The notes: generated from the letters alone by a model not told the origin. Positions 4,481 to 30,466 are shown, numbered from the stretch's first letter. The stretch is 64,000 nucleotides of DNA from a virus (IMGVR_UViG_3300045988_166199:9605-73604), one strand, 5' to 3'. Made by a program: numbers and translations.

Positions 4481-5617
4481 ACCAGTATTAGTCACGTACA
4501 CATTGACCGAAAATGATTTAACTTCTGTGTTGAAGTTGTCAGTCATTACCGCGAGGTAGGCATTCTTGGTATCTCTGAATTGCTTCAGGATGATTTGAAC
4601 GTTGTCGGTGCAAACAAACGAGGTAGCCAGATTGCCTCCTTTCTCTGAAAAATCCTTCAGGAAGGTGCAGTCAACTTTGCCATCATTAGCGGTGAAGGTA
4701 GCATCATCACCCTGCCAGGTAAATGTAGCGTTAACGCCCTTATCAATGGATTTAGCAATAAGTCGCTGGGTGGCGGATTTTGTTTTGGCTTTGGAAGCCG
4801 GCGCTCGATATTTGCCGCTTTCTTTCAGTTCTGCAATGTAATCGCAGCCTCTTTTTTCTCCTTTATCGCAAGCAGTCTGATAAAGGTCGGCTGCTTTTTT
4901 ATAGTCCTTTTTTACACCTTCCCCATTCTCATACATAATGCCAAGATTGGTTATGGCGTCGGCGTTTCCAAGTTCCGCTGCCTTTTTATACCACTTAACT
5001 GCTTCTGCATCATTGCGTTTAACGCCTAACCCATCATCGTATAGTATTCCTAATCCTATCATAGCTTCTGAACTGCCTTGGTCTGCCGCCTTTTTGTAAT
5101 AAGTAAAAGCCTTTTTATAATTCTTTTTAACGCCTTTACCATATTGGTAATACGCCCCAAGAACTGAAGTTGCTTTAACATACCCGGCATCAGAGGCTAG
5201 TTTGAAGTATTTAATGGCGAGTGCATGATCTACTTTACCAAGCATCCCCTTTTGATAAATAGCACCAAGATTGTTGTAGGCTCTACCTTCACGAGCATCC
5301 CCCGCAAGTTTGTAGTACTCAACAGCTTTATTTAGGTCTTTATCTACACCCTCGCCAAATGTGTACATAACTCCAAGTGCATAATATGCTACTTTATCTC
5401 CCTTTTCTGCAGCTAGATCAATCCACTTCTTGGCCTCAACTACATCCTTATCAAAACCATTGACACCATCAAAATAATTTGTACCTAACTCACTTTGTGC
5501 TGCGGTATCCCCTGCGGTAGCGGCTTCTATCAGCGTTTGTTTATTGTCTGCGTTAACGAATCCAGAGTTAAAAAGCAAAGTTAATGCCAGCAACGATGAA
5601 GATTTTATGTATTTCAT
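4472..5617 (-). CDS. secreted Sel1-like repeat (SLR) protein
   Basis: N-terminal signal peptide; about 7 tandem Sel1/TPR-like repeats (A.YYLG.MY..G.GV.KD...A..WY.KAA); opposite strand to flanking replication genes. Confidence 0.75.
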   Translation of the reverse strand: MKYIKSSSLLALTLLFNSGFVNADNKQTLIEAATAGDTAAQSELGTNYFDGVNGFDKDVVEAKKWIDLAAEKGDKVAYYALGVMYTFGEGVDKDLNKAVEYYKLAGDAREGRAYNNLGAIYQKGMLGKVDHALAIKYFKLASDAGYVKATSVLGAYYQYGKGVKKNYKKAFTYYKKAADQGSSEAMIGLGILYDDGLGVKRNDAEAVKWYKKAAELGNADAITNLGIMYENGEGVKKDYKKAADLYQTACDKGEKRGCDYIAELKESGKYRAPASKAKTKSATQRLIAKSIDKGVNATFTWQGDDATFTANDGKVDCTFLKDFSEKGGNLATSFVCTDNVQIILKQFRDTKNAYLAVMTDNFNTEVKSFSVNVYVTNTGSN

Positions 5618-5850
5618 GTTTTTTTGTTCTGTTGATATAGGATGAACAGTTTAGACGCGGCAAGCGTCAAGTGTGCGAAAAGGGTACTTAAATTTAGTTA
5701 ATCTGTCAGCTTTGATAATTTAATTTATGAACTGTAAAGTTGATGTGATATTAATCACCGATGGAAATAATGAGCTATGGAATTATTGTGACACGGCTCG
5801 TGTTTTGGTTAACTAATACCTACGATAAATATAAATAAAGGGAAGTCAAA

Positions 5851-6264
5851 ATGAGCAAAAAGAAGTTGATTTTAACAGGTGCTTTATTGTCTTTGTTTGC
5901 ATTAGTTGGGTGTAAGCCTACAGACGAGAAGGCTATTACTCTGGGCCAACAGGCAATTGCGGATGATATGAAAGATCCCACGTCGGTGATGTTTAGGAAA
6001 GATAAGTTTGTCAGGACTGATCATGATGATGGGAGTGTGACAGGCTTTGTGTGTGGTGAATTAAACGCCAAAAATGGCTTTGGTGCATACGTGGGCTATC
6101 ACTCATATGTTGTTGAACTCGAAATGAAGCCAAAGGGCATGTTTTCAAAAGGGGTGGTATACAAAATCCTATCGAAGTCGTTGGCACCTAATGATCCTCA
6201 TGATTTACAGCGTTATAAGCAGGTCTACAGAAAGATGTGCAACAGTGAGGCTGTAGCTCATTAA
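5851..6264 (+). CDS. putative lipoprotein (137 aa)
   Basis: Signal peptide with lipobox LVGC. Confidence 0.55.
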   Translation: MSKKKLILTGALLSLFALVGCKPTDEKAITLGQQAIADDMKDPTSVMFRKDKFVRTDHDDGSVTGFVCGELNAKNGFGAYVGYHSYVVELEMKPKGMFSKGVVYKILSKSLAPNDPHDLQRYKQVYRKMCNSEAVAH

Positions 6265-6389
6265 AGGTGAATGCTGGGCTGCGGATACGCCCGGCATCTT
6301 AGTATAAAGAACTATTGCACCTAAAATGATAAGTATATACATACTTAAGTTTTTGTAAGAATACTTTCATCCGTTAGCTAGGAGTTGGT

Positions 6390-7172
6390 ATGAAAGAAGA
6401 AATTAAGAGATTAGCCTGCAACATCATTGATAAAACTGGTTTAGAAATCAGCGAGAGCAATCGGCTAGACATCATTGGAAAAGCCGTCAATACGGCAATG
6501 GATCATATCGCCACTCGTTTGGTCGAGATCCCGCTACCGGGGCTACCTTATCTGAAGGTTAAGTTGTGCGTATGGGGCGAACCTGCACATGCACGACGTT
6601 CTGCATTAGTTGTTTTTGTACGCAAAGAAAACTTACGAACTCTAAAAGTGCAGGTTGGGACGTGGTTTGATGGCAGAGTCATCTATACAGATACCATTAT
6701 CTGTCCTCCAGGTGACGAACATATTGAAGCCGTTATTCGAGAATCAATTCGAGCTATGCGTAGTTTAGCTTTGCTGGAAGACAAGCAAAACTTTGAAGAT
6801 TACTTGCTGTCGGTAAAAGCTGAACCAACATTGTCTCTGAAAGCCGATTTCGTCACCCCGACAAATCTGTTGGAGGTTTTGATTAATAAAGGGGCTAATG
6901 ATGCTGTAAATCTAATCAGGGAGAGCGAATATTCGACTCTTTGGGACATGTGCAAAAGCCAGTTGGATCTTGTGCATATCATTGTTGATGCGGGTAAGGC
7001 GTGTGATGGCGTAATGGCGGAATTTGCTGGGAAGATGGTCAGGATTGCTAACGAATTACCGATGATAGAGCAAGAGGCCAAATCATACGCCACCAATCAT
7101 GTCACAGAGCTTCTTGCCCCCTATCGCTTAGAAAGCGATCAGCGCAAGATGATTAGCTGGGGAAGTTGGTAA
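6390..7172 (+). CDS. hypothetical protein (260 aa)
   Basis: ORF with RBS-like ggag upstream; no motif recognised. Confidence 0.5.
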   Translation: MKEEIKRLACNIIDKTGLEISESNRLDIIGKAVNTAMDHIATRLVEIPLPGLPYLKVKLCVWGEPAHARRSALVVFVRKENLRTLKVQVGTWFDGRVIYTDTIICPPGDEHIEAVIRESIRAMRSLALLEDKQNFEDYLLSVKAEPTLSLKADFVTPTNLLEVLINKGANDAVNLIRESEYSTLWDMCKSQLDLVHIIVDAGKACDGVMAEFAGKMVRIANELPMIEQEAKSYATNHVTELLAPYRLESDQRKMISWGSW

Positions 7173-7239
7173 GCTCTCTGTGTGTCGTTTTTTACGCAAA
7201 TAATGATAGGTAAGCACAAGATTATTTCTGGCGGTAATT

Positions 7240-7710
7240 GTGAAAGCTGATTTGTCAAAAATCCCTTCTATTTCAGGAAATAACGGTTATTCACTTCGTT
7301 GTGAGGAAGTAAAGATAAACGGTGAGTCGGCATATTGCAGCTACTCCGTTTGCCAGCACACCATTCTTGCCTTCAAAGAAAACCGTCTTCCTCGAACGTC
7401 TTTCCAGTCGTGCGCAACCGCTATTAAAGCAGGCAAATGCAAGGCGTTAAAAATGATGGTTGAAGAGATTCGTAAAGGAGAATCTCTGTATTACGAAGAT
7501 ATGACCGCACTCATTAAGGAGGTTGAAGAACGGAATAAACAAGCCAGAACTATAAAACGAAAACGTGACAGTGTAACGATTAATAGCATGGTTAAGAAGA
7601 GCGCCACATCACAAACAGCGATCACTGACGTGTATGCGGCGTTGATTGAAGAAACAACAAAAGAAACACATGAGCAAATCGATCAACATATGGAGGCAAA
7701 ACAACAATGA
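7240..7710 (+). CDS. hypothetical protein (156 aa)
   Basis: ORF preceded by GATAGGTAAGCA motif; stop overlaps ligase start. Confidence 0.45.
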   Translation: MKADLSKIPSISGNNGYSLRCEEVKINGESAYCSYSVCQHTILAFKENRLPRTSFQSCATAIKAGKCKALKMMVEEIRKGESLYYEDMTALIKEVEERNKQARTIKRKRDSVTINSMVKKSATSQTAITDVYAALIEETTKETHEQIDQHMEAKQQ

Positions 7711-9029
7711 AAAAGTTGATCGCACTTAAGCATAAGCTGGACGAAATGAAAGCTATGGGAACCAATGCAAAAAAAGAGGCATTGGCCAACATGGATGACT
7801 TTGAACAAAGCATGGTTTCATTGATGCTCAACCCTTTCATCCGTTTTGGGGTAAAGAAATACAAAGTGGCAGAGCCGCTTAGTGAGTCCGTCCCAAGTGA
7901 CGAAAAAGCCATTGATGTACTGAATAAGCTGGCCTCTCGCGAGCTGACGGGGAACGCAGCAATAGCTGCTGTTGAGTCTATCGTGGCGTCAATGTGCGCC
8001 GATGGGCAGGACGTCTTCCGTCGTTTCCTCTTAAAAGATCCGAAAGCTGGCGTTGGGATTAGCCTATGCAACAAGGTTTTTGAAAATCCCATTCCGAAAT
8101 TCGAGGTGCAGCTGGCGTCACCGTATAAAGAAAAAGGCGACAAATACCCCTTCAAGCCAAACCCTAAAGCAAAATGGCCGATGATTGGCAGCCTTAAGCT
8201 CGATGGTTTGCGAGTAATTTGCGAGGTTATTGTTGACGAAGAAGAGGTTAACTTCCTTTCTCGTACTGGTAATCCAATCACGTCTCTCGATCACCTAAAG
8301 CCAGCCATGCTCGAATTAGGCAAACTTTCAGGCCACAAACACATCTTCTTCGATGGTGAAGGCACAGCCGGTTCATTTAACCAGTCCGTATCTGCATTGC
8401 GCAAAAAGAACGTGCAGGCAATTGGCGCTATTTATCATGTTTTCGACTTCTTCCTACCGGAATGGCGAGCACAGGCTAAATCCAAAGAGTATGCAAAGAC
8501 AGGTATGAAGCTGAAAGAGCGCCTGGCTATGCTCGTGGCGTTGTTCAAAAACGATCGCAGTGAAGGCTACGCACAAGACATTCACCTGCATCCGTTCTAC
8601 ATCATCCATAGCCACGAAGACTTCATCGAACGCTTCATGAAACGCCTGGACGATAACGAAGAAGGGGAGATGGGCAAAGATCCGAACTCTGTTTACGAGT
8701 TTAAACGTACCCGCAGCTGGTGGAAGTTAAAAGACGAAGATTCAGAAGATGGTGAAATTATCGATTTTGAGCCGGGCGACCCGGACTCTGGTTTTGCCAA
8801 CACGCTTGGGAAAATTGTTATTCGTCTTGAAAACGGCGTCATCGTTCGTGCGAGCGGCATTAAGCATAAATATCTGGACGAGATCTGGAACAACAAAGAG
8901 AAGTACCGTGGTCGTATTGTCGAGGTTCATTGTCACGAGAAAACACCTGATGGCAGCTTACGCCACCCACGACTGAAATGGCCGCGTTGCTTACGCGATA
9001 CCGAAGATCGAATCGGAGATAAAGAATGA
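7707..9029 (+). CDS. ATP-dependent DNA ligase
   Basis: Motif I KLDGLR (KxDGxR adenylation lysine), motif V-like SWWKLKDE; T4 ligase-like. Confidence 0.8.
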   Translation: MKKLIALKHKLDEMKAMGTNAKKEALANMDDFEQSMVSLMLNPFIRFGVKKYKVAEPLSESVPSDEKAIDVLNKLASRELTGNAAIAAVESIVASMCADGQDVFRRFLLKDPKAGVGISLCNKVFENPIPKFEVQLASPYKEKGDKYPFKPNPKAKWPMIGSLKLDGLRVICEVIVDEEEVNFLSRTGNPITSLDHLKPAMLELGKLSGHKHIFFDGEGTAGSFNQSVSALRKKNVQAIGAIYHVFDFFLPEWRAQAKSKEYAKTGMKLKERLAMLVALFKNDRSEGYAQDIHLHPFYIIHSHEDFIERFMKRLDDNEEGEMGKDPNSVYEFKRTRSWWKLKDEDSEDGEIIDFEPGDPDSGFANTLGKIVIRLENGVIVRASGIKHKYLDEIWNNKEKYRGRIVEVHCHEKTPDGSLRHPRLKWPRCLRDTEDRIGDKE

Positions 9030-9241
9030 TCGTATTAAGTAAACGGGAGAAAGAAACGCTTCATGAAATAAGTAAGTGGCCGGAGTTCCCTGAGTACTGG
9101 AAGCCTAAAACGCGAGCTAAGTTAGAGCGTTTAGGGTTGGTTGCAAACGTTTCTGAAACGTGGCGCTCGGCCAACTACCAGTTAACTGATAAAGGGAAAT
9201 TATTGCTACAGCAATTAGTAGAATCAGGAGCCTTTAAATGA
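9026..9241 (+). CDS. hypothetical protein (71 aa)
   Basis: ORF overlapping ligase stop. Confidence 0.4.
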   Translation: MIVLSKREKETLHEISKWPEFPEYWKPKTRAKLERLGLVANVSETWRSANYQLTDKGKLLLQQLVESGAFK

Positions 9242-9388
9242 TTCCATACATCTCATTGGCTTTTATGGCTGGCTTCCTTATCGGCTTCGGCATCTGTCAT
9301 GATTTGATTAAGCAGGAACTTAAAACCAAAACACTGTGCATCGGAAAGCGCGTGTATCGAGTAGTTCATGAAACAAAGGTGAAAAAAT
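9239..9388 (+). CDS. small membrane protein (about 49 aa, below ORF-track cutoff)
   Basis: ATGATTCCATACATC... hydrophobic ORF MIPYISLAFMAGFLIGFGICHDL; its first 24 nt are repeated at 10250 and partly at 15045. Confidence 0.35.
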
Positions 9389-9677
9389 GAGCAAGTTAAC
9401 TTCTTGGGAATGGTGGTTGGTCACCTATTTCTTAGCGGCCGGAGTCGCATTCGCCTTTTACGTAGGTCAGTTAGTCGTAAAACTGTTGCTGATTAAATTT
9501 GCTAGTCATAAACGTATCGATGATGGTCTGTGGCGTCTTGGCACCCTGGTGGAAACTCGCTACGGGCAACTTAAGGAGAACGAAACCATTACTATCCAAG
9601 CGAAACAATTCACTGCCACCATCACAAGAACACCTAGTCGTAGAGTGGCCTTGATCAAAAAAGTCACAACCGAATAA
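9387..9677 (+). CDS. putative membrane protein (96 aa)
   Basis: N-terminal hydrophobic helix WWLVTYFLAAGVAFAFYVG. Confidence 0.45.
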   Translation: MSKLTSWEWWLVTYFLAAGVAFAFYVGQLVVKLLLIKFASHKRIDDGLWRLGTLVETRYGQLKENETITIQAKQFTATITRTPSRRVALIKKVTTE

Positions 9678-10454
9678 AAATACAATAATAAGTATTTACT
9701 TACCTATCTTTTATGTATAAGATGACTTTGTTTTCGTTGAGACGCGACTGTTTGAACTTAAATACAAGTGCAAACGAAGAAGTCTATCTGGCAGTAGCCT
9801 AATAAGCCAAACACCAGCGAGGTCAGTTTCCAGCCTCGTTACCGAAATGGGACACACTGAGCGAGTGTGATTGCAGAACGCAGGAGGGAACATGAGAGTT
9901 CCCTCCGATGAAGTAACAGAATGGGCGGTCAGTATATTTTCAACTCATATACGACTCCCGGATTCTTAGCCAATGACCGCCCATCCTGTTACGTCATTTT
10001 GTTCAATTATGTCGTTTATACTGGGTTAAAAAGCGGCGACGTAGCCCGGCTGGTATGGTTAGCCAGCACACAACGTTGAGGCCATTACATTTTTATCAAT
10101 TCTAAGGTTCTATTCACAGAGATACCGGCGAGCGTTGATATGTAACATGTTGGGCAAACATTCAATCGGAGTAGTGGCCTCAACGTTGTGAAGACAGGAT
10201 TGTTGTATAGGTTTAACCACTGTTGCCATTAGTGCCTGTTTTCACAACAAATGATTCCATACATCACATTGTATAAATTACAAAGTAGGTGCTGTCCTCA
10301 GAAACATCATCTACTTAAAGATTTTGCCTTCTATTGAGCGAAGTCGAAAACGTCTGGCACTAACGGAAAGTGCCAGTAGCGGTGTGTTTCCTGGCAGAAA
10401 CTAACACCGCCGCGATTGGCACTGTTGAGTAATAAATACTGGCAGTGCTGAATT

Positions 10455-10529
10455 GATGGTGTAGCTCAGCGGTAGAGCAGTTGGCTGTTAACCAACTGGT
10501 CGGTGGTTCGAATCCACCCACCATCGCCA
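10455..10529 (+). tRNA. tRNA-Asn (anticodon GTT)
   Basis: Cloverleaf: acceptor gatggtg/caccatc, anticodon loop ctGTTaa, T-loop ggttcgaatcc, 3' CCA; sequence differs from host asn tRNAs. Confidence 0.8.
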
Positions 10530-10534
10530 ATTTA

Positions 10535-10621
10535 GGGGAGTTAGTCCGTAGAGGTAGCGGGACAGACTGTAAATCTACTGTCATTGCGACTCGGGTGGTT
10601 CGACTCCATCACTCCCCACCA
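10535..10621 (+). tRNA. tRNA-Tyr (anticodon GTA)
   Basis: Acceptor ggggagt/actcccc, anticodon loop ctGTAaa, long variable arm, ggttcgactcc T-loop, CCA. Confidence 0.8.
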
Positions 10622-10625
10622 AATT

Positions 10626-10701
10626 GCCGGTTTAGCTCAGTTGGTAGAGCGCCTGCCTTGTAAGCAGGATGTCAGCGGTTCGAGTCCGTTAACCGGCACC
10701 A
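10626..10701 (+). tRNA. tRNA-Thr (anticodon TGT)
   Basis: Acceptor gccggtt/aaccggc, D-arm tagctcagttggtagagc, anticodon loop ctTGTaa, T-loop ggttcgagtcc, CCA. Confidence 0.75.
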
Positions 10702-10925
10702 ATACAACGATAAGATCATTACGGTTAATCGTCGTTCATGTGCACAATGACTGGTCGAAAGGTAGTGATCTTACCGTTGTGGTGGATTCGCAGACTGATG
10801 CGATAGCTTTCTTGGATGTTAGGGAAATGCGGCCGCAAATCTTCCCTTTCGCGAGCGGTGATCGTCCGTAGTCCTAATTGGCTGCACCGTATGCCGGAGA
10901 TTCAGTACCGGCCACCACAACGGCC

Positions 10926-20664: not shown

Positions 20665-20868
20665 GTGCGTAAAGGATGTTTCGGCTCTCTTATCGCTGCT
20701 TCTGAAACTGGCAAGGCTTGTCTGGTGTGTCCAGACAAGCCCGATTGTCACCAATCAGCAAAAGAAGTTGCGATTTCGATGTATGGGAAATTCGTAGGCT
20801 TCCCCAATGACAAAATCAAAAAAACCAGAAAGGTAAAAACACATGAAGGCTCTGATGGTTCGAACTGA
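20665..20868 (+). CDS. small Cys-rich hypothetical protein (67 aa)
   Basis: ORF between AAA+ gene and polymerase; CxxC-like cysteines; overlaps polymerase start. Confidence 0.3.
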   Translation: MRKGCFGSLIAASETGKACLVCPDKPDCHQSAKEVAISMYGKFVGFPNDKIKKTRKVKTHEGSDGSN

Positions 20869-23800
20869 CTTCTCTCTTGGGGAGTCGGCTCTAAAAGCAG
20901 AAAACGCGGTGAAGATTGCCAGAGAAGCTGGCTACACCGCTGTAATTTCGGCAGATAGCATGAATATTGCGAGTGTTATTCCACTACAACGTGCCGCTGG
21001 TGACGACATGGCGGTTATTTGTGGTGTGAAACTAAACATTGTTGATGATCCCACATACGAGCACCGGGCTAAACTTGCTAAAGAGTCTATGGGATGTATG
21101 GAATCATTAGAGCGTGGGCGGAACTACTCCTTTACCGCTCTAATTAAAAATGAGCAGGGATATCGAGACATCTGCGAACTAATGACGGCGGCCAACACAC
21201 GAGAACAGTTCTACTTTGTACCGCGTCTCTCGCTCGAACAGTTGGTTTCTACATATGCCAAAGGCAACATCATCCTGCTCACTGCCGACATCGGTAGCGT
21301 GTACCAACGCAACGATTTTGCAAAAATCATAAGCTCACTGATTACAGCGGGTGGAAAAAACAACTTCTATAGTGTGGTTTATCCGCACCCTACCCCATTC
21401 TACGACCAGATTAACGTCCGGGCGATGAAAGTCGCCAGCGCACTGAAAATAGAGCCAGTAGCGTTCTATCCCGCTTATTACGAATCGATCGACGATGCAG
21501 ACATTAAAGACATTGCGCACATGGTTACGAACAACATCAAAATCGACCAGCCGCATCGTCTGCGTATCCCCCACCAGCGAGATAACGCCGTCAATGGTCG
21601 CCGCCATCTCCTTGAGGCGCTGAAAGCCTTCTCCGTTCGCATGGATGTGCCGGTAACAGCCGCAATGGCCTCAACAACGCAGGATACCATTATCGATGCC
21701 TGCACATGGCGCTGGCATGAATTGCCACCAGCACTGCCAAAGATGGCAGACGACGAGCCTGCAACGCTGATGAAACTGGCCGTTGCTGGGCTGCGTAAAC
21801 GTCTTACCACAAAAGAGTTTGGCTACACACCACCGGCTTCTGAGAACAGGGTTTATGTTGAGCGACTTAAGTACGAAATGGACACGCTTACTCGCCTGGG
21901 ATTTTGTGGTTACTTCCTGATGGTACGCGATCTGATGAATCACAGCCGTGAAACTGGCATTCCTGTCGGGCCTGGTCGTGGTTCCTCCGCTGGCTCTTTG
22001 GTGGCATGGTGCATAGGCATAACCAACGTCGACCCTATCCGTCACGGTCTTCTGTTTGAACGTTTCATCAACCCTGAGCGTCTCGACTTGCCAGATGCGG
22101 ACTTGGACTTCAGCCAGGCACGTCGCCATGAGGTGATCGAGTATCTGAATGAACGCTACGGCGAAGATTACGTTGCAGGCATTCCGAACTTCACCTACCT
22201 GGGCGCGGCCTCTGCACTACGTGACACCGCTCGTATTTATGGTGTGGAGTCCGCAGATATGGCGGTATCAAAAGAACTGAAGAACGTCGAGGATGATAGC
22301 CTTCCATTGGAAGAGCTGCGCGAACAACTGGCAAGCCTCGACAAATACGCGACAAAATATCCTGATGCATTCAATGCAGCCTGCAAGTTACAAAGCCTTA
22401 TGCGTGGCTATGGTAGACATGCGGCAGGGATGATCGTAGCAGGTGTTCCTCTGACAGAACGAACACCGGTTGAACGACGTGGTGACGCGCGTTGTATCGC
22501 ATTTGACAAGCGTTACTGCGAGGCTATGGGCCTAATTAAGCTGGACGTACTTGGCCTGGCGACTCTCGATTTGCTCGATAGTGCAAAACGCTACATTAAA
22601 GAGAACACAGGTGAGGATATCAATCTTGATGCCATTTCTCTTGAAGATCGCAAGGTGCTGGATGGTTTTGCTGCTGGGTACACTCAAGGTGTTTTCCAGC
22701 TTGAATCAGGCCCAATGCGCAAGCTGCTTAAAGATTTAGGTGGTGGAATTGAGCCAATGAGCTTTAAAACGGTCGTTGCTACGACTGCGCTCTTCCGGCC
22801 GGGGCCAATTCAGTCAGGCATGTTGGATGATTATGTTTCTGTCGCCAAAGGCTTTATGACGCCGGAATCATTACACCCCGTTCTTGATGAACTTACCGCA
22901 GAAACAAATGGCGTGATTCTCTATCAGGAACAGACGATGAACGCGACTCGATTGCTTGCCGGCTTCACAATGGCTGAAGCTGACGGCGTTCGTAAAGCGA
23001 TCGGCAAAAAAGACATGGAGAAAATGAAGAGCATGGGTGAGAAGTTCATCGTTCAGGCTCAAGCTGGCTGGATCGACGTTGAGCTGGAAGATGGCACTAC
23101 ACAGCGCATTCACCGTGCGGAACATTTTAAATGCGAAGACGGAACTCTGAAAACTGTCGAAGAGGCACTTGAGTTCGGTGCAAAACTACCTATAAACGCA
23201 GTACGCGTTACAGCGTCACATCCAGGGCTATCAGAGATGAAAGCGAAGGAGATCTGGACCGCATTCGAAAAGAATGGTGCCTACCAGTTCAACAAATCAC
23301 ACTCTGTTGCTTACTCCTTAATCAGTTATCAATCTATGTGGTTGAAAACTCATTATCCCGCAGAGTTTTTCGCTGCTGCTCTCACTATTCTTGGCGAAGA
23401 TAAACACCAGGGGCTGGTTAAAGATGCGCTGACCTATGGTATTCGCGTATTGCCACCAGACGTTAACATGTCATCTAACCGAATCGAGATCCGCACGCTT
23501 GAAGATGGCAGCCAGGTGCTGTATGCGCCCTTCTCTGCTGTGAAGGGGTGTTCTGAGAATGGCTGCCAGGCCATCATGAGAGCGCGAGAAAAGGTTGGCG
23601 GCAAATTCGAGTCACTTGCGCAATTCGAAGAAGCTGTCGAGAAACGTGCCTGTAATAGTCGAGTGCGCGAATCGCTGCAAAAAGTAGGGGCGTTTGCATC
23701 CATCGAGCCAGGTAGTCTGCCAGCAACTGATCCAGAGCGCCTCCGCGACCAGGCTGAATTGATGGGAAACCTTGTCATAGATGCAGTTAAAGCCTCACGT

Positions 23801-24361
23801 CCGTTTGAGATGAACCCCAAACGTTCGGCTGAGATTAACGTGCTCATGACACGGATGGCGGCTGAAATGGGCTTAGGTGATGAACTAATCCGCCCCAGCA
23901 TTGGTATTAAGCCGAAAATCATGATCATTCTGGACAATGCGAACGGCAATGATGCTCGAACCGGTTACTTTATGGAGAACGGATACGACGATTTTAAGGC
24001 CAAGCTATTGACGGCTGGAGATTTACGCATGGGCGATCTCTATGTCACAGGCGTTTGCAAGAAGGTTAAAGACAAAGAAAAAGACTACACCAAAGACGAG
24101 ATCGGCCAGTTCACCGACTTTATGCGTGAAGAGATCAATCTGGTGCGTCCGACCTATGTGCTGACGTGTGGCAGCCGGGCAACGTCGCTCTTCAACAACA
24201 AGATCAAACCATCCGACCTGGTTGGACGCAAAGAGTATCTGCCGGAGCTGGATGTGACTGTTTTCTACGGATTTAACCCGAATATTTTGTACTTTCGCCC
24301 AGAGGAAGGCGAAAAGCTGGAAGCAATTCTGGCAGAGGTAGCGGAGACTATTAGCAAATGA
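20843..24361 (+). CDS. dnaE: DNA polymerase III alpha subunit-like replicative polymerase (PHP domain, DnaE family)
   Basis: Signature GPGRGSSAGSLVAWCIGITNVDP...LLFERFINPER..PDADLDF; 1172 aa. Confidence 0.95.
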   Translation: MKALMVRTDFSLGESALKAENAVKIAREAGYTAVISADSMNIASVIPLQRAAGDDMAVICGVKLNIVDDPTYEHRAKLAKESMGCMESLERGRNYSFTALIKNEQGYRDICELMTAANTREQFYFVPRLSLEQLVSTYAKGNIILLTADIGSVYQRNDFAKIISSLITAGGKNNFYSVVYPHPTPFYDQINVRAMKVASALKIEPVAFYPAYYESIDDADIKDIAHMVTNNIKIDQPHRLRIPHQRDNAVNGRRHLLEALKAFSVRMDVPVTAAMASTTQDTIIDACTWRWHELPPALPKMADDEPATLMKLAVAGLRKRLTTKEFGYTPPASENRVYVERLKYEMDTLTRLGFCGYFLMVRDLMNHSRETGIPVGPGRGSSAGSLVAWCIGITNVDPIRHGLLFERFINPERLDLPDADLDFSQARRHEVIEYLNERYGEDYVAGIPNFTYLGAASALRDTARIYGVESADMAVSKELKNVEDDSLPLEELREQLASLDKYATKYPDAFNAACKLQSLMRGYGRHAAGMIVAGVPLTERTPVERRGDARCIAFDKRYCEAMGLIKLDVLGLATLDLLDSAKRYIKENTGEDINLDAISLEDRKVLDGFAAGYTQGVFQLESGPMRKLLKDLGGGIEPMSFKTVVATTALFRPGPIQSGMLDDYVSVAKGFMTPESLHPVLDELTAETNGVILYQEQTMNATRLLAGFTMAEADGVRKAIGKKDMEKMKSMGEKFIVQAQAGWIDVELEDGTTQRIHRAEHFKCEDGTLKTVEEALEFGAKLPINAVRVTASHPGLSEMKAKEIWTAFEKNGAYQFNKSHSVAYSLISYQSMWLKTHYPAEFFAAALTILGEDKHQGLVKDALTYGIRVLPPDVNMSSNRIEIRTLEDGSQVLYAPFSAVKGCSENGCQAIMRAREKVGGKFESLAQFEEAVEKRACNSRVRESLQKVGAFASIEPGSLPATDPERLRDQAELMGNLVIDAVKASRPFEMNPKRSAEINVLMTRMAAEMGLGDELIRPSIGIKPKIMIILDNANGNDARTGYFMENGYDDFKAKLLTAGDLRMGDLYVTGVCKKVKDKEKDYTKDEIGQFTDFMREEINLVRPTYVLTCGSRATSLFNNKIKPSDLVGRKEYLPELDVTVFYGFNPNILYFRPEEGEKLEAILAEVAETISK

Positions 24362-24494
24362 ATAAAGAAAACACCATAAAGGAGGCCAAAGAGTTTATGA
24401 AAGTAAACAAGATTGGCGATGTGAGATAGTACAGGCTGAAACGCTAGACCAGAGTCACTCTATCCAACATCTTGGGTAAGAAAGTCGCATAAAT

Positions 24495-24525
24495 AAAAAA
24501 CCCGCCAATCGCGGGTTTCATTTAT
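24495..24525. terminator. bidirectional hairpin terminator
   Basis: aaaaacccgc caat cgcgggtttcattt between convergent polymerase and opposite-strand gene. Confidence 0.7.
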
Positions 24526-24579
24526 TAATTGCAGATTCCGTGTAGTGATAGTTATTAATTATCTTCCGCCAATAAGACA

Positions 24580-25170
24580 TCAACTTAACTCTTTTATCTG
24601 CTTCCAAGTTTCAATACCTATTTCAGTTAAAGCATTAAAGTAATCGTTTTTTATTTCCGCATACTTGGAATCATCAAAGTTCAGATTACCATTATTTTTT
24701 TCTTCGACGCATTCCATGAAAAATTTAAGTGCATCATTACATTTATTAAAAATAGTTTGCTGATGAGTTTTTTTAGGATTAAGCAATACAATTATCTGAT
24801 TGCATTGAATCATTACAATTTTCGCCAGTTCGTCCCCAGCTTGTTGATATGTCGGGATTGCCTGCGGATTTATCGGTCGTTTTAATAAGTTGTAATTCAT
24901 ATCGAGATTCGCATAAAACTCACTACTTCTTGACCTTAGCTCTTGAAGCCAACGAAGTCTTTCTGCGGTAATTATAGTTGCTTTTAATTTTTTATCTTCA
25001 ATAGCAGCAGCAGAATTAATTTGTTCGTTTGTGCCTCGATATAACAAATATGCACCAATAGCAGCGCCTGCAATAGCTGATATTGAAGATATTACAGCAA
25101 TCCAAATAGCAGAATGGTCAGGTTTCGTGTTCTCTGCTATTTGCTTTAATAAATTATAAATATCAAACAT
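24580..25170 (-). CDS. membrane-anchored hypothetical protein (196 aa)
   Basis: Single N-terminal TM helix (IWIAVISSISAIAGAAIGAYLLY); AT-rich; opposite strand to the flanking module. Confidence 0.6.
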   Translation of the reverse strand: MFDIYNLLKQIAENTKPDHSAIWIAVISSISAIAGAAIGAYLLYRGTNEQINSAAAIEDKKLKATIITAERLRWLQELRSRSSEFYANLDMNYNLLKRPINPQAIPTYQQAGDELAKIVMIQCNQIIVLLNPKKTHQQTIFNKCNDALKFFMECVEEKNNGNLNFDDSKYAEIKNDYFNALTEIGIETWKQIKELS

Positions 25171-25414
25171 GAGGATAATATTTCCTTTTAATTTGAATAA
25201 TTAATGATAAATGCTGTGCGGAAACATGAAGATTCTATCCTTTTCAAAACCCATATTTCTTTCGATTAAATCCACGAACACAATAGGAGAAACTCCTGCA
25301 ATTAACAAGCCCTAAGAAATGGTTGTTCGAGCAGATAGCATAACGGTCTATCTTGGATTAGCGTTAATTTAAGCTCTATAATCAATACATCATGATAAGT
25401 GAGAATCTATCAAA

Positions 25415-25846
25415 ATGAGCACCAATATATACGAAAAAATCATGTCCGATCTCGAGTTTGACCGAGACAATCTGGAAGAAGTCTGGCGTAGACAACCCCG
25501 CCTGTTGATGGAATATGGCTCAAAACTCGCCCATGCAGAAAGAAGTGTCGCAGAAGCAAAACTTAACCTTGAAGCTGTTGAAGCAAAGCTATACGACACA
25601 GAGCGTAAGAACTTGAGTATGAACGGCATTAAGTTCAACGAATCTGTACTGGACGCTAAGGTTAAAACAAACCCACAGTATCTGTCTAAACGGCAGAAGT
25701 TGGATGAAGCACGGCACATCGCAGACATATACAAACATGCTGTCGCCGCCTTTTCGCATCGCCGAGACATGATCGTTCAGGCGTCAAAGATGGCCATCGT
25801 TGAATTAGAGCGATTAGGCTCTGAACGCTTTATTACTCCCCGTTGA
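25415..25846 (+). CDS. hypothetical protein (143 aa; possible UvsY-like recombination mediator)
   Basis: Size, helical pattern and position upstream of SSB and recombinase genes; similarity to UvsY is weak and from memory. Confidence 0.45.
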   Translation: MSTNIYEKIMSDLEFDRDNLEEVWRRQPRLLMEYGSKLAHAERSVAEAKLNLEAVEAKLYDTERKNLSMNGIKFNESVLDAKVKTNPQYLSKRQKLDEARHIADIYKHAVAAFSHRRDMIVQASKMAIVELERLGSERFITPR

Positions 25847-29431: not shown

Positions 29432-29632
29432 ATGATCAAAATCTATCTATTGGCAGTAGCCACAGGCCTTTCAGTGGCTCTCATCTACGGTTTACTGGTT
29501 CCGTCGCTGATTTCTACCAAGAGTGATTTAGCCGTCATGTTTGGAGTTATCGTTGGTTTTGGTGCTCCTGTAATCGGTCTTATTGCTGGTCGTAAGTTTA
29601 TCAACTCATTAATCAAAGCAAAGGGGAAATAA
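29432..29632 (+). CDS. small two-TM membrane protein (66 aa)
   Basis: Two hydrophobic helices; 4-bp gap to SPFH gene. Confidence 0.5.
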   Translation: MIKIYLLAVATGLSVALIYGLLVPSLISTKSDLAVMFGVIVGFGAPVIGLIAGRKFINSLIKAKGK

Positions 29633-29635
29633 GTA

Positions 29636-30466
29636 ATGAAGAAAGGTTTACTTGCAGTTGCTCTGGCGGCTATTTGCACAATGGGTCTTACTGGCTGTGA
29701 TCGCGTGGAGCCTGGATACGTTGGCATCAAAGTAAACAAATTAGGTGAAGACAAAGGGATTGGTGAAGTGGTTGGCGTTGGTCGCCAATGGACAGGTCTT
29801 AACACCGAACTTTACGTATTCCCGACCTTCAAACAAATGAAGACCTACGACGAGCCGTTCACATTCCAGATGAGTGACGGTACTGCTATTGGTCACAAAA
29901 TTGGCGTTGCGTATCTGGTTAATCGTGACAAGGTAACGACGGTGTTCCAGACCTATCGCAAAGGCGTAGACGATATCACCGAATCAGATCTGCGTCAGAA
30001 AATTGCCGACTCTCTAAACCGTTTGGCCAGCCGTATGACCACCGACTCATTTATCGACGGTGGTAAGGCACAATTGCTGGACAACGCACTGAAAGATATT
30101 CAGAAAGAGATGTCTCCGGTTGGTATTGAGGTACTGAGCCTGTCATGGGTTGGAAAGCCTGATTACCCAAAAACCGTCATTGAATCTATCAACGCCAAAG
30201 TAACGGCTAACCAGCGTACTCTGCAACGTCAGCAGGAAGTTGAACAGCGTAAAGCTGAGGCGAATATGCTACGTGAACAGGCTAATGGTGAAGCTGATGC
30301 TATCCGTGCTCGTGCGCAAGCAGAAGCCGACGCCATTCGTCTGCGCGGTGAAGCTCTGCGTCAAAACCCGAACGTTATGGAGCTGGAAGCCATCAATAAA
30401 TGGAATGGCCAGTTACCGCAGTACATGACTCAAGGGGCTAACACTCCTTTCATTACAGTGAAATAA
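29636..30466 (+). CDS. SPFH/band-7 (stomatin/prohibitin-like) domain lipoprotein
   Basis: Lipobox LTGC; band-7 core; C-terminal coiled-coil with QRQQEVEQRKAEA...EADAIRARAQAEADAIR repeats. Confidence 0.7.
   Translation: MKKGLLAVALAAICTMGLTGCDRVEPGYVGIKVNKLGEDKGIGEVVGVGRQWTGLNTELYVFPTFKQMKTYDEPFTFQMSDGTAIGHKIGVAYLVNRDKVTTVFQTYRKGVDDITESDLRQKIADSLNRLASRMTTDSFIDGGKAQLLDNALKDIQKEMSPVGIEVLSLSWVGKPDYPKTVIESINAKVTANQRTLQRQQEVEQRKAEANMLREQANGEADAIRARAQAEADAIRLRGEALRQNPNVMELEAINKWNGQLPQYMTQGANTPFITVK

What the first reader, a model, noticed from the sequence alone, without database searches (positions are those of the whole stretch)
24580..25170. Opposite-strand membrane-anchored single-gene insertion between polymerase and recombination genes
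This 196-aa protein has a single N-terminal TM helix, is AT-rich, lies on the opposite strand and is insulated by a bidirectional terminator. That is a typical moron layout; candidates include superinfection exclusion or an abortive-infection effector.
Basis: inference. Interest (0 to 1): 0.5.

Follow-up and report, generated by a model that had tools for sequence, protein, structure and literature searches.

The report
Membrane-anchored accessory gene in phage-plasmid hotspot
A small, AT-rich gene for a membrane-anchored helical protein occupies a swap-in/swap-out slot of an SSU5/pHCM2-type phage-plasmid; it belongs to an unstudied protein family that usually sits among anti-phage genes, so it is a reasonable but unproven candidate for a new single-gene phage-defence protein.

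Summary
ORF 24580-25170(-) encodes 196 aa with one N-terminal TM helix. Its GC is 33%, against 50% for the neighbouring dnaE. It lies antisense between dnaE and a UvsY/gp32/FEN/RecA module and ends at a bidirectional terminator (24497-24519).

The window is an SSU5/pHCM2-type phage-plasmid. Of 780 PLSDB plasmids that share the flanks, only 45-46 carry this gene. PhiR41_1 has an empty site. Other relatives carry a HicAB-like pair (PADLOC candidate PDC-M06), a DUF4365 nuclease-like gene, cspG, hdeAB or a lipoprotein. The gene is therefore accessory cargo in a hotspot, not core.

The protein is real: dN/dS is 0.2 against pHCM2 and 0.08 against Vibrio. It belongs to an uncharacterised family of about 256 clusters at 50% identity, with no Pfam, NCBIfam, PADLOC or PDB sequence match.

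The AF2 model (pLDDT 83) shows a TM helix, a stalk and a four-helix bundle. The fold is generic. The inferred topology is N-out/C-in. The TM helix has a conserved glycine-zipper-like stripe.

Homologues elsewhere have no fixed partner gene. They sit on mobile elements and next to ApeA, R-M, GmrSD/HEPN, Septu/PARIS-like ATPases, a STAND NTPase, ToxN and HicAB.

My best reading is a stand-alone membrane-acting anti-phage protein, with an Abi-like mechanism favoured over exclusion. This is inferred, not shown.

The parts
24580..25170 (-). CDS, 196 aa. It comprises a short conserved N-terminal peptide (1-19), a TM helix (~21-44) with a small-residue stripe, a stalk helix (45-~68) and a four-helix bundle (~69-194).
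   Evidence: ORF listing; homologues and alignment; purifying selection; AF2 model with pLDDT 82.8; per-position conservation.
24497..24519 (.). Bidirectional intrinsic terminator hairpin (AAAACCCGCC-loop-GGCGGGTTT). It is shared by the convergent dnaE-side transcript and the cargo gene, and forms the conserved left boundary of the hotspot.
   Evidence: Terminator-like on both strands. The same hairpin is present in SSU5 and Cyrano with other cargo.
25171..25376 (-). AT-rich non-coding leader and putative promoter region of the cargo gene. It is the right-hand part of the insertion.
   Evidence: Absent from the PhiR41_1 empty site. GC of 24526-25376 is 0.33. No promoter reached the scan threshold here; sequence read.
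24354..25376 (.). The whole segment present here but absent from the empty site of Escherichia phage PhiR41_1. This is the occupied hotspot.
   Evidence: blastn breakpoints against L003.
24358..24429 (+). 23-aa remnant ORF overlapping the dnaE stop codon. It is an internally deleted copy of the 141-148 aa gene that follows dnaE in SSU5 (SSU5_053), pHCM2, pMT1 and Klebsiella relatives.
   Evidence: Sequence. Window 24379-24525 aligns at 89% to the 3' end of SSU5_053 plus the terminator. The intact gene is seen.
20843..24361 (+). Left backbone flank: DNA polymerase III alpha subunit.
   Evidence: Pfam DNA_pol3_alpha, finger, HHH_6 and PHP domains.
25415..25846 (+). Right backbone flank: UvsY-like recombination mediator. 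It is the first gene of the gp32 / 5'-3' exonuclease / RecA module.
   Evidence: Annotated as UvsY in phage Cyrano; no Pfam hit here. The downstream genes hit gp32, 5_3_exonuc and RecA.

Best explanation
**What is shown**

- The gene is horizontally acquired accessory cargo. It occupies a variable slot between dnaE and the recombination module of an SSU5/pHCM2-type phage-plasmid.
- It encodes a protein under purifying selection that belongs to an uncharacterised family.
- The protein has one TM helix and a four-helix bundle.

**What is inferred**

- The topology is N-out/C-in. A conserved ~19-residue peptide faces the periplasm. A stalk of variable length holds the four-helix bundle in the cytoplasm.
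- The conserved residues (R71, W74, R79, D90, N131, Q137, Y170, W189) should cluster at the membrane-proximal end of the bundle.
- The protein acts alone as an anti-phage or anti-mobile-element protection factor. It would be made from the resident plasmid-prophage.

**Mechanism I commit to**

The mechanism is Abi-like. The cytoplasmic bundle recognises an infection cue, such as a phage protein or nucleic acid at the membrane. The TM helices then pack through their conserved small-residue (S31/G35/G39, glycine-zipper-like) face into an oligomer. That oligomer leaks ions or depolarises the inner membrane and stops phage development.

**My probabilities**

| Claim | Probability |
|---|---|
| Accessory cargo | 0.95 |
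| Defence or competition role | ~0.6 |
| This Abi-like membrane mechanism | ~0.35 |

The confidence value given for this explanation (0.35) is that of the full statement, including the Abi-like mechanism.
For: **Accessory status**

- PhiR41_1 has an empty site.
- The gene is in 45-46 of 780 flank-sharing plasmids.
- In E. coli it is in 16 of 5426 complete genomes, always on a plasmid.
- It is absent from all 50,697 phage records.
- GC is 0.33 against 0.50 for dnaE.

**The slot holds defence-type cargo in relatives**

- A HicA/HicB-like pair matches PADLOC candidate PDC-M06A/B and occurs in ~343 plasmids.
- A DUF4365 gene matches the nuclease domain of an Argonaute-associated protein.

**No conserved partner gene**.

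**Contexts of homologues**

- ApeA and a DpnII-MboI-like gene (L016), an EcoRI methylase (L018) and a RelA_SpoT gene (L020).
- Integrase, DUF927 and a STAND NTPase (L021), and an AAA_13 ATPase (L023).
- GmrSD plus HEPN, and SNF2/DUF1156.
- MmeI_TRD in a unit with a DUF5906 primase and HTH_17.
- DpnII-MboI.
- HipA_2/DUF3037 and AAA_15/21 in a prophage.
- An ICE with ToxN.
- A Schlafen-like gene, and HicAB plus WYL.
- A PADLOC scan of 125 neighbours hit PtuA, AriA, DrmMI, type IIG R-M, mad3/8 and several PDC candidates.

**Structure and topology**

- AF2 model.
- Family variants with an N-terminal signal peptide or extra TM helices imply C-in.
- The small-residue stripe lies at positions 25, 28, 31/32, 35/36 and 39/40. 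Small-residue fractions at those positions are 0.76-0.98, and 0.86-0.98 at the S31/G35/G39 zipper positions, across 52 diverse members.
- Stalk insertions of 11 residues (P0044, P0045) and, by my estimate, about 35 residues (P0082) occur in some members.

**Precedent**

Single membrane-anchored Abi proteins exist, namely AbiP/AbiC and PdpSau. PdpSau alters membrane potential and permeability on infection (PMC13064643, PMC10127798).
Against: - No experiment exists for any family member.
- The protein has no similarity to any known defence, Abi or Sie protein in Pfam, PHROGs, PADLOC or NCBIfam.
- DefenseFinder 1.3 found no defence system on pHCM2-like elements, which carry this gene (bioRxiv 10.1101/2025.09.12.675607).
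- The neighbourhood evidence covers about 16 contexts without a formal background test. Some contexts show nothing defence-like (L019, L022, L009).
- The slot also holds non-defence cargo: cspG, hdeAB and a lipoprotein.
- The positive-inside signal is weak. One fusion, P0040, has DUF4062 N-terminal of the TM helix and argues for the opposite topology.
- No promoter was identified.
- Oligomerisation and pore formation are pure inference from a sequence motif.
Confidence: 0.35

Rival explanations
1. Superinfection exclusion. The inner-membrane protein blocks genome entry of incoming phages or related phage-plasmids at the cytoplasmic membrane, without killing the host, as P22 SieA, T4 Imm and HK97 gp15 do.
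For: The gene is carried by a temperate element in a moron-like unit. The protein is bitopic in the inner membrane with a conserved periplasm-facing peptide and a basic, membrane-proximal conserved patch. [quoted passage not shown]
Against: Many family members are outside prophages. They sit in chromosomal islands beside R-M, ApeA and GmrSD, and in distant phyla including a Verrucomicrobia MAG. This is not what I would expect of an excluder that works through a specific phage or host entry component; that expectation rests on my own knowledge and was not tested. The bulk of the conserved protein appears to be cytoplasmic. No PHROG annotated as exclusion is matched.
Confidence: 0.2
2. Non-defence lysogenic-conversion cargo. 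The protein would be a membrane-tethered helical protein that modulates host envelope or stress physiology or signalling, benefiting the carrier independently of phages.
For: The same slot carries cspG, hdeA/hdeB and a lipoprotein in other relatives. The best structural matches are four-helix-bundle sensor domains of histidine kinases and chemoreceptors. Some homologue contexts are not defence-like, for example UmuDC plus an MFS transporter (L022) and an amino-acid kinase/GNAT gene (L019).
Against: No output or signalling domain and no conserved partner gene were found. Sensor four-helix bundles are periplasmic and lie between two TM helices, whereas this bundle appears cytoplasmic and follows a single TM helix. 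Most homologue contexts are defence- or mobile-element-rich.
Confidence: 0.2
3. A self-serving membrane toxin or lysis-timing factor. It would be holin- or antiholin-like, or a post-segregational killing factor that helps the phage-plasmid's own lysis or maintenance.
For: The layout of one TM helix plus a large C-terminal domain superficially resembles class III (T4 T-type) holins; this resemblance is recalled, not tested. The TM helix is glycine-zipper-like. The neighbouring alternative cargo at the slot is a toxin-antitoxin-like pair.
Against: There is no antitoxin or other partner. The gene is not in a lysis cassette. It is missing from ~94% of related elements, which lyse and are maintained without it. 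No holin family is matched in Pfam or PHROGs. The inferred topology is the opposite of T-type holins.
Confidence: 0.07
4. A core replication or recombination accessory of the phage-plasmid, or simply a spurious ORF in AT-rich DNA.
For: Its position lies between replication and recombination genes.
Against: Only about 6% of flank-sharing plasmids carry it, and an empty site exists. It is on the opposite strand and has foreign composition. It is not spurious: there are full-length homologues in about 256 clusters, and dN/dS is 0.08-0.20.
Confidence: 0.03

Closest known systems
Lactococcal AbiP/AbiC group and staphylococcal prophage protein PdpSau (single membrane-anchored abortive-infection proteins)
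   Same: All are a single gene with no partner, carried on a plasmid or prophage as accessory cargo. All have one or two N-terminal TM helices followed by a soluble domain. PdpSau changes membrane potential and permeability on infection, and AbiP needs its TM anchor (PMC13064643, PMC10127798).
   Different: There is no detectable sequence similarity; Pfam and PADLOC give no AbiC/putAbiC hit. The soluble domain here is a plain four-helix bundle, not the AbiP/PdpSau fold with its OB-like nucleic-acid-binding region. No phenotype is known.
Prophage superinfection-exclusion membrane proteins (P22 SieA, T4 Imm, HK97 gp15)
   Same: These are small inner-membrane proteins encoded by morons of temperate phages and expressed from the prophage. 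Each is sufficient on its own.
   Different: No sequence or PHROG relationship was found. This family is widespread outside prophages and across phyla. Its conserved part appears to be cytoplasmic.
Four-helix-bundle ligand-binding domains of chemoreceptors and histidine kinases (Tar, Tsr, PcaY, TorS, NarX)
   Different: Identity is 4-17% and no Pfam 4HB_MCP/TarH hit is found. The protein has one TM helix, not two, and no HAMP, kinase or MCP output domain. The bundle is inferred to be cytoplasmic. Designed helical bundles score almost as well, so the fold is generic.
PDC-M06 (HicA/HicB-like pair), the commonest alternative cargo at the same slot
   Same: It occupies the same position, on the same (opposite) strand, and uses the same terminator in SSU5, pMT1, Cyrano and many E. 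coli and Enterobacter plasmids.
   Different: It is a two-gene toxin-antitoxin-like candidate system that is unrelated in sequence and has no membrane component.

Membership tests
Moron (independent accessory transcription unit in a temperate phage genome) | Inserted between two genes that are adjacent in related genomes | tested here: met
   PhiR41_1 has dnaE and the UvsY-like gene ~95-125 bp apart. The window has an extra 24354-25376. The gene is present in 45-46 of 780 flank-sharing plasmids.
Moron (independent accessory transcription unit in a temperate phage genome) | Nucleotide composition differs from the surrounding genome | tested here: met
   GC 0.33 and GC3 0.25, against dnaE GC 0.50 and GC3 0.52.
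Moron (independent accessory transcription unit in a temperate phage genome) | Own terminator | tested here: met
   The hairpin at 24497-24519 is terminator-like on both strands. It belongs to the slot boundary and is shared with other cargo.
Moron (independent accessory transcription unit in a temperate phage genome) | Own promoter, with expression from the repressed prophage | tested here: inconclusive
   A 206-nt AT-rich upstream region exists. No site there reached the sigma-70 scan threshold. Expression cannot be tested with these tools.
AbiC/AbiP (Pfam putAbiC; PADLOC AbiC) | Sequence match to the family profile | tested here: not met
   No such hit for the window protein at E<=1 in Pfam or PADLOC. 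It is not among the families listed for 52 diverse members.
AbiC/AbiP (Pfam putAbiC; PADLOC AbiC) | N-terminal TM anchor plus a soluble domain, single gene | tested here: met
   This is a resemblance in layout only.
AbiC/AbiP (Pfam putAbiC; PADLOC AbiC) | Abortive-infection phenotype; nucleic-acid binding | not testable with these tools
   Needs phage challenge and biochemistry.
Known anti-phage defence systems (PADLOC-DB 2.0, DefenseFinder 1.3) | Match to any catalogued defence protein model | tested here: not met
   PADLOC gave 0 families. A published DefenseFinder screen found no system on pHCM2-like elements, which carry the 84%-identical gene (presence in pHCM2).
Superinfection-exclusion proteins (SieA, Imm, gp15, Sie2009-type) | Sequence match to an annotated exclusion family | tested here: not met
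   PHROGs gave only phrog_24982 (unknown function), plus weak hits to families of unknown function and one peptidase at E=0.078. Pfam gave none.
Superinfection-exclusion proteins (SieA, Imm, gp15, Sie2009-type) | Blocks genome entry of the superinfecting phage | not testable with these tools
   Needs DNA-entry assays.
4HB_MCP / TarH-type sensor domains | Four-helix-bundle fold | tested here: met
4HB_MCP / TarH-type sensor domains | Profile match, periplasmic location between two TM helices, and a downstream signalling domain | tested here: not met
   No Pfam hit. The protein has a single TM helix and ends after the bundle. Family variants imply that the bundle is cytoplasmic.
LemA (N-terminal TM helix plus helical bundle, ~190 aa) | Pfam LemA profile match | tested here: not met
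   Not reported at E<=1 for the window protein. It is not among the families listed for the 52 members.
Class III (T4 T-type) holin | Profile match, and a location in a lysis cassette | tested here: not met
   No Pfam or PHROG holin hit. The neighbours are replication and recombination genes.

The most novel reading that the evidence does not exclude
The protein is the enterobacterial representative of a previously unrecognised, widespread family of stand-alone anti-phage proteins. The family has about 256 clusters at 50% identity, from Gammaproteobacteria to Verrucomicrobia. In this reading, a membrane-tethered cytoplasmic four-helix bundle senses infection and a glycine-zipper TM helix executes membrane failure. 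It would be a new single-gene defence family, and it would also be the only defence gene on the long-'cryptic' S. Typhi plasmid pHCM2.
Probability: 0.3. Interest if true: 0.6.

Novelty: new member of a known kind. Interest (0 to 1): 0.42.

Why it matters
SSU5/pHCM2-type phage-plasmids are common in E. coli, Shigella sonnei, Klebsiella and S. Typhi, and their homologous module is also on Yersinia pestis pMT1. They are usually called cryptic.

Showing that the dnaE-uvsY gap is an exchange slot gives a concrete place to look for what these elements contribute to their hosts. The slot holds a HicAB-like PDC-M06 pair, a DUF4365 nuclease-like gene, cspG, hdeAB, a lipoprotein or this membrane protein.

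If the 196-aa protein protects against phages, three things follow:
- It would add a compact, single-gene, membrane-acting family that is absent from current defence catalogues.
- It would explain part of the persistence of pHCM2-like plasmids.
- It would matter for phage-therapy host-range prediction.

If it does not protect, it remains an ordinary hypothetical accessory gene.

Tried and rejected
- **Family searches.** Pfam, PHROGs, PADLOC and NCBIfam scans gave nothing usable. The only hits were phrog_24982 (unknown function) and sub-threshold YfbR-like and DUF5820 hits, which I treat as chance.
- **Structure searches.** A PDB sequence profile search found nothing below E=0.3. Foldseek against viral and PDB structures found nothing at E<=0.001. 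The afdb50 library was unavailable.
- **Conserved partner gene.** I compared upstream and downstream neighbours from six contexts. None are related apart from identical contigs. A possible paralogue in L030 was checked and rejected.
- **Guess about a neighbour.** I guessed that the neighbour L010:2797-3447 was AbiC-like. Pfam, PADLOC and NCBIfam did not confirm this.
- **Cassette-end repeats and RNA elements.** I found only a 13-nt inverted repeat that is not conserved in pHCM2, and a sub-threshold Trp_leader hit that is simply the terminator.
- **Literature.** Searches by protein accession and for pHCM2 or SSU5 accessory genes found no study of this gene. pHCM2 antigens HCM2.0043 and HCM2.0069c were reported as immunogenic, but I did not map them to this gene.
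- **Tool limits.** The search for related loci failed with the diverse alignment and returned only 10 genomic loci with the closer one.

Full report
**1. The observation**

- Gene GC is 0.33 and GC3 is 0.25. The neighbouring dnaE has GC 0.50 and GC3 0.52, and the whole window has GC 0.45.
- There is one strongly hydrophobic stretch, with a Kyte-Doolittle 19-residue mean of 2.0 at residues 21-40.
- Downstream of the gene, the hairpin AAAACCCGCC/GGCGGGTTT at 24497-24519 scores as a terminator on both strands. The 1.2-kb region has 5 terminator-like sites against 0.7 expected.
- The flanks are DNA polymerase III alpha (20843-24361) on one side. On the other are a UvsY-like gene, a gp32-type SSB, a 5'-3' exonuclease and a RecA-like protein.

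The ORF is a real gene. Full-length homologues exist at 84% identity (pHCM2) and 67-68% identity (Vibrio fluvialis, Pseudidiomarina). dN/dS is 0.20 and 0.08 respectively.

**2. What the window is, and whether the gene is core or accessory**

The region is 96% identical to Escherichia phage PhiR41_1. It is 83% identical to Salmonella phage SSU5 and 80-81% identical to Klebsiella relatives. The window is therefore an SSU5/pHCM2-type phage-plasmid.

The presence/absence data are as follows.
- A tblastn of the protein finds nothing in 50,697 phage records.
- It finds 46 plasmids. Eleven are E. coli at 100% identity. About 32 are Salmonella at ~84%, including pHCM2 of S. Typhi CT18. The remaining three are Klebsiella oxytoca, Citrobacter and Enterobacter.
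- The flanking DNA is found in 780 plasmids, but only 45 cover the insert.
- In complete E. coli genomes the cassette occurs in 16 of 5426, always on a plasmid (15 of them 101-113 kb, one 72 kb) and never on a chromosome.

The boundaries of the insertion are clear.
- PhiR41_1 has the two flanking genes ~95-125 bp apart. The window has an extra ~1.0 kb, at 24354-25376.
- Window 24379-24525 is not part of the cargo. It is the 3' end of the gene that follows dnaE in SSU5 and pHCM2, plus the terminator.
- The window keeps only a 23-aa internally deleted remnant of that gene, at 24358-24429.
- The terminator hairpin is shared by SSU5 and Cyrano, which hold different cargo. It is therefore the fixed left edge of the slot.

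Relatives hold other cargo at the same position.
- A HicA/HicB-like pair lies on the same opposite strand in Cyrano, SSU5, pMT1 and many E. coli plasmids. It matches PADLOC candidate system PDC-M06A/B, and its B component occurs in ~343 plasmids.
- A DUF4365 gene resembles the nuclease domain of Argonaute-associated proteins and occurs in ~38 plasmids.
- cspG, hdeA/hdeB, and a small gene plus a lipoprotein in Klebsiella also occur there.

The gene is thus one allele of a multi-allelic accessory hotspot.

**3. The protein**

No curated family matches it.
- Pfam gives only sub-threshold noise. NCBIfam gives nothing. PADLOC gives nothing. PHROGs gives phrog_24982, of unknown function.
- All public names for the protein are 'hypothetical protein', and the exact sequence is seen on 797 contigs.
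- A word-indexed search found 45 clusters. An exhaustive profile search found 256 representatives at E<=1e-3 and 56 at E<=1e-30.
- Fifty-two diverse members share no Pfam family, and the profile hits nothing in the PDB by sequence.

AlphaFold2, run with a 32-sequence alignment, gives mean pLDDT 82.8 and pTM 0.65.
- The helices are 4-14, a continuous helix 19-97, then 106-128, 135-159 and 167-194.
- This amounts to a TM helix, a stalk and an up-down four-helix bundle.
- Foldseek gives no significant hit.

The fold is generic and does not assign a function.

Conservation is informative.
- Across the deep alignment the near-invariant residues are L8, I11, R71, W74, R79, D90, L130, N131, Q137, Y170 and W189.
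- From the helix order, E70-R79 (ERLRWLQxxR), the 130-134 loop (LNPxK) and the C-terminal ETWxxIKxL should all lie at the membrane-proximal end of the bundle. This placement is inferred from secondary structure; I could not inspect coordinates.
- The TM helix carries a stripe of small residues at positions 25, 28, 31/32, 35/36 and 39/40. Small-residue fractions at those positions are 0.76-0.98, and 0.86-0.98 at the S31/G35/G39 zipper positions. This is a glycine-zipper-like pattern, typical of tightly packed TM oligomers; that link rests on established knowledge.
- The stalk tolerates insertions of 11 residues (P0044, P0045) and, by my estimate, about 35 residues (P0082).

On topology, the positive-inside signal is weak: 2 K+R before the TM helix and 4 after it.
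- Some family variants add a cleavable-looking signal peptide and a Cys-containing segment (P0051, P0057, P0064; also the ~260-aa forms in Proteus, Enterobacter and Trabulsiella).
- Others add one or three extra TM helices upstream (P0069, P0068).
- All of these place the bundle in the cytoplasm.
- One truncated metagenomic protein, P0040, fuses a DUF4062 domain N-terminally. That would imply the opposite topology. I leave this unexplained.

**4. Genomic company elsewhere**

No neighbour is conserved across contexts, so the family travels as a single gene. The contexts are overwhelmingly mobile or defence-type.

| Context | Neighbours |
|---|---|
| Vibrio ICE | TrwC/TraG and ToxN |
| Prophage accessory region | HipA_2/DUF3037 and an AAA_15/21 ATPase pair |
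| Metagenomic contig (P0035) | GmrSD_N plus HEPN; SNF2 and DUF1156 |
| L012 | MmeI_TRD beside a DUF5906 primase and HTH_17 |
| L013-L015 | DpnII-MboI-like genes |
| L016 | ApeA immediately downstream |
| L018 | EcoRI methylase |
| L020 | RelA_SpoT enzyme |
| L021 (Proteus island) | Integrase, DUF927 and a STAND NTPase |
| L023 | AAA_13 ATPase |
| L030-L032 | Schlafen-like gene and transposase |
| L033, L035 | HicAB plus a WYL regulator |

A PADLOC scan of 125 neighbouring ORFs hit PtuA, AriA, DrmMI, type IIG R-M, a type II methylase, mad3/mad8 and several PDC candidates.

Three contexts show nothing of the kind: L019, L022 (UmuDC plus an MFS transporter) and L009 (an island just after glmS). 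I could not compute a background rate, so this is suggestive enrichment and not a statistic.

**5. Most likely function**

- **Shown:** accessory hotspot cargo; a selected protein; a single TM helix plus a four-helix bundle; a solitary gene; defence- and mobile-element-rich neighbourhoods.
- **Inferred:** the protein is a stand-alone protection factor made by the resident plasmid-prophage and acting at the inner membrane.

I favour an Abi-like mechanism, at about 0.35. In it, the cytoplasmic bundle senses an infection cue, the TM helices oligomerise through the small-residue face, and membrane integrity fails. Three points support this.
- The conserved part is cytoplasmic.
- The family is widespread outside prophages and across phyla, which is less like an excluder tailored to one entry pathway.
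- There is precedent in AbiP/AbiC and PdpSau, which are single membrane-anchored Abi proteins. PdpSau alters membrane potential on infection, and AbiP is triggered by a tail protein (PMC13064643, PMC10127798).

The rivals are:
- superinfection exclusion at DNA entry, about 0.2;
- a non-defence conversion function, about 0.2, which is credible because cspG and hdeAB use the same slot;
- a self-serving toxin or lysis factor, about 0.07;
- a core function or a spurious ORF, about 0.03, which the data contradict.

**6. Comparison with what is known, and novelty**

As a genomic feature this is a textbook moron in a hotspot. As a protein it belongs to none of the families it resembles in layout.
- AbiC/P, Sie proteins, LemA, T-type holins and 4HB_MCP sensors all fail the sequence test.
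- It is not in PADLOC 2.0.
- A published DefenseFinder 1.3 screen reported no defence system on pHCM2-like elements, which carry the gene.

I file it as a new member of a known kind: mobile-element-borne single-gene membrane accessory or candidate defence proteins. Function is unproven. Interest is moderate. It is a clean, cheap candidate for a phage-challenge experiment, and it marks a well-defined exchange slot in a clinically common phage-plasmid family. Nothing here is mechanistically surprising yet.

Noticed in passing
window 24358-24429 (+): A 23-aa ORF overlapping the dnaE stop codon is an internally deleted remnant of the 141-148 aa gene that follows dnaE in SSU5 (SSU5_053), pHCM2, pMT1 and Klebsiella relatives. 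The 3' end of that gene and its terminator survive at 24379-24525.
   Followed up: partly
window 24354-25414, and loci L003-L005, L026-L029: The dnaE-uvsY gap of SSU5-type phage-plasmids is a multi-allelic cargo slot. It is empty in PhiR41_1. Elsewhere it holds a HicAB-like PDC-M06 pair (~343 plasmids), a DUF4365 nuclease-like gene (~38 plasmids), cspG, hdeAB, a Klebsiella lipoprotein cassette, or the 196-aa gene (46 plasmids).
   Followed up: partly
L026 1-296 and L027 1-296 (E. coli plasmids NZ_CP062814.1, NZ_CP134368.1): In these relatives the PLSDB table lists an 'HNH endonuclease' CDS close to the 3' part of dnaE, and dnaE itself is not listed. This could be a homing-endonuclease insertion or split in dnaE, or just the incomplete gene table.
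   Followed up: no
protein P0040 (metagenomic, 1273-nt contig): A family member has a DUF4062 domain fused N-terminally to the TM helix and bundle. This is the only domain fusion seen, and it conflicts with the N-out/C-in topology inferred from the other variants.
   Followed up: partly
L021 (Proteus alimentorum), L022 (Enterobacter MAG), L023 (Trabulsiella guamensis): Enterobacterales genome contigs carry ~260-aa versions of the family. These have an N-terminal signal-peptide-like segment and a Cys-containing extracytoplasmic stretch before the TM helix. In Proteus the gene sits in an island with an integrase, DUF927 and a STAND NTPase.
   Followed up: partly
window 24522-24534 / 25296-25308: A 13-nt inverted repeat (TTATTAATTGCAG / CTGCAATTAACAA) brackets the gene. 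At least its left arm is not conserved in pHCM2, and it is probably chance in AT-rich DNA.
   Followed up: partly
window 24492-24588 (-): There is a sub-threshold Rfam Trp_leader match (27.8 bits against a gathering score of 41). It is simply the terminator hairpin and not a leader.
   Followed up: yes
L009 (Pseudidiomarina sp.), 5582-10900: The family member lies in a run of small hypothetical and membrane-protein genes immediately downstream of glmS. This is the classic attTn7-type island position.
   Followed up: no
window 29432-30466 (+): The backbone carries a 66-aa membrane-protein ORF followed directly by a gene that a near-identical plasmid annotates as SPFH-domain. This pair is conserved in pHCM2 and the E. 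coli relatives.
   Followed up: no
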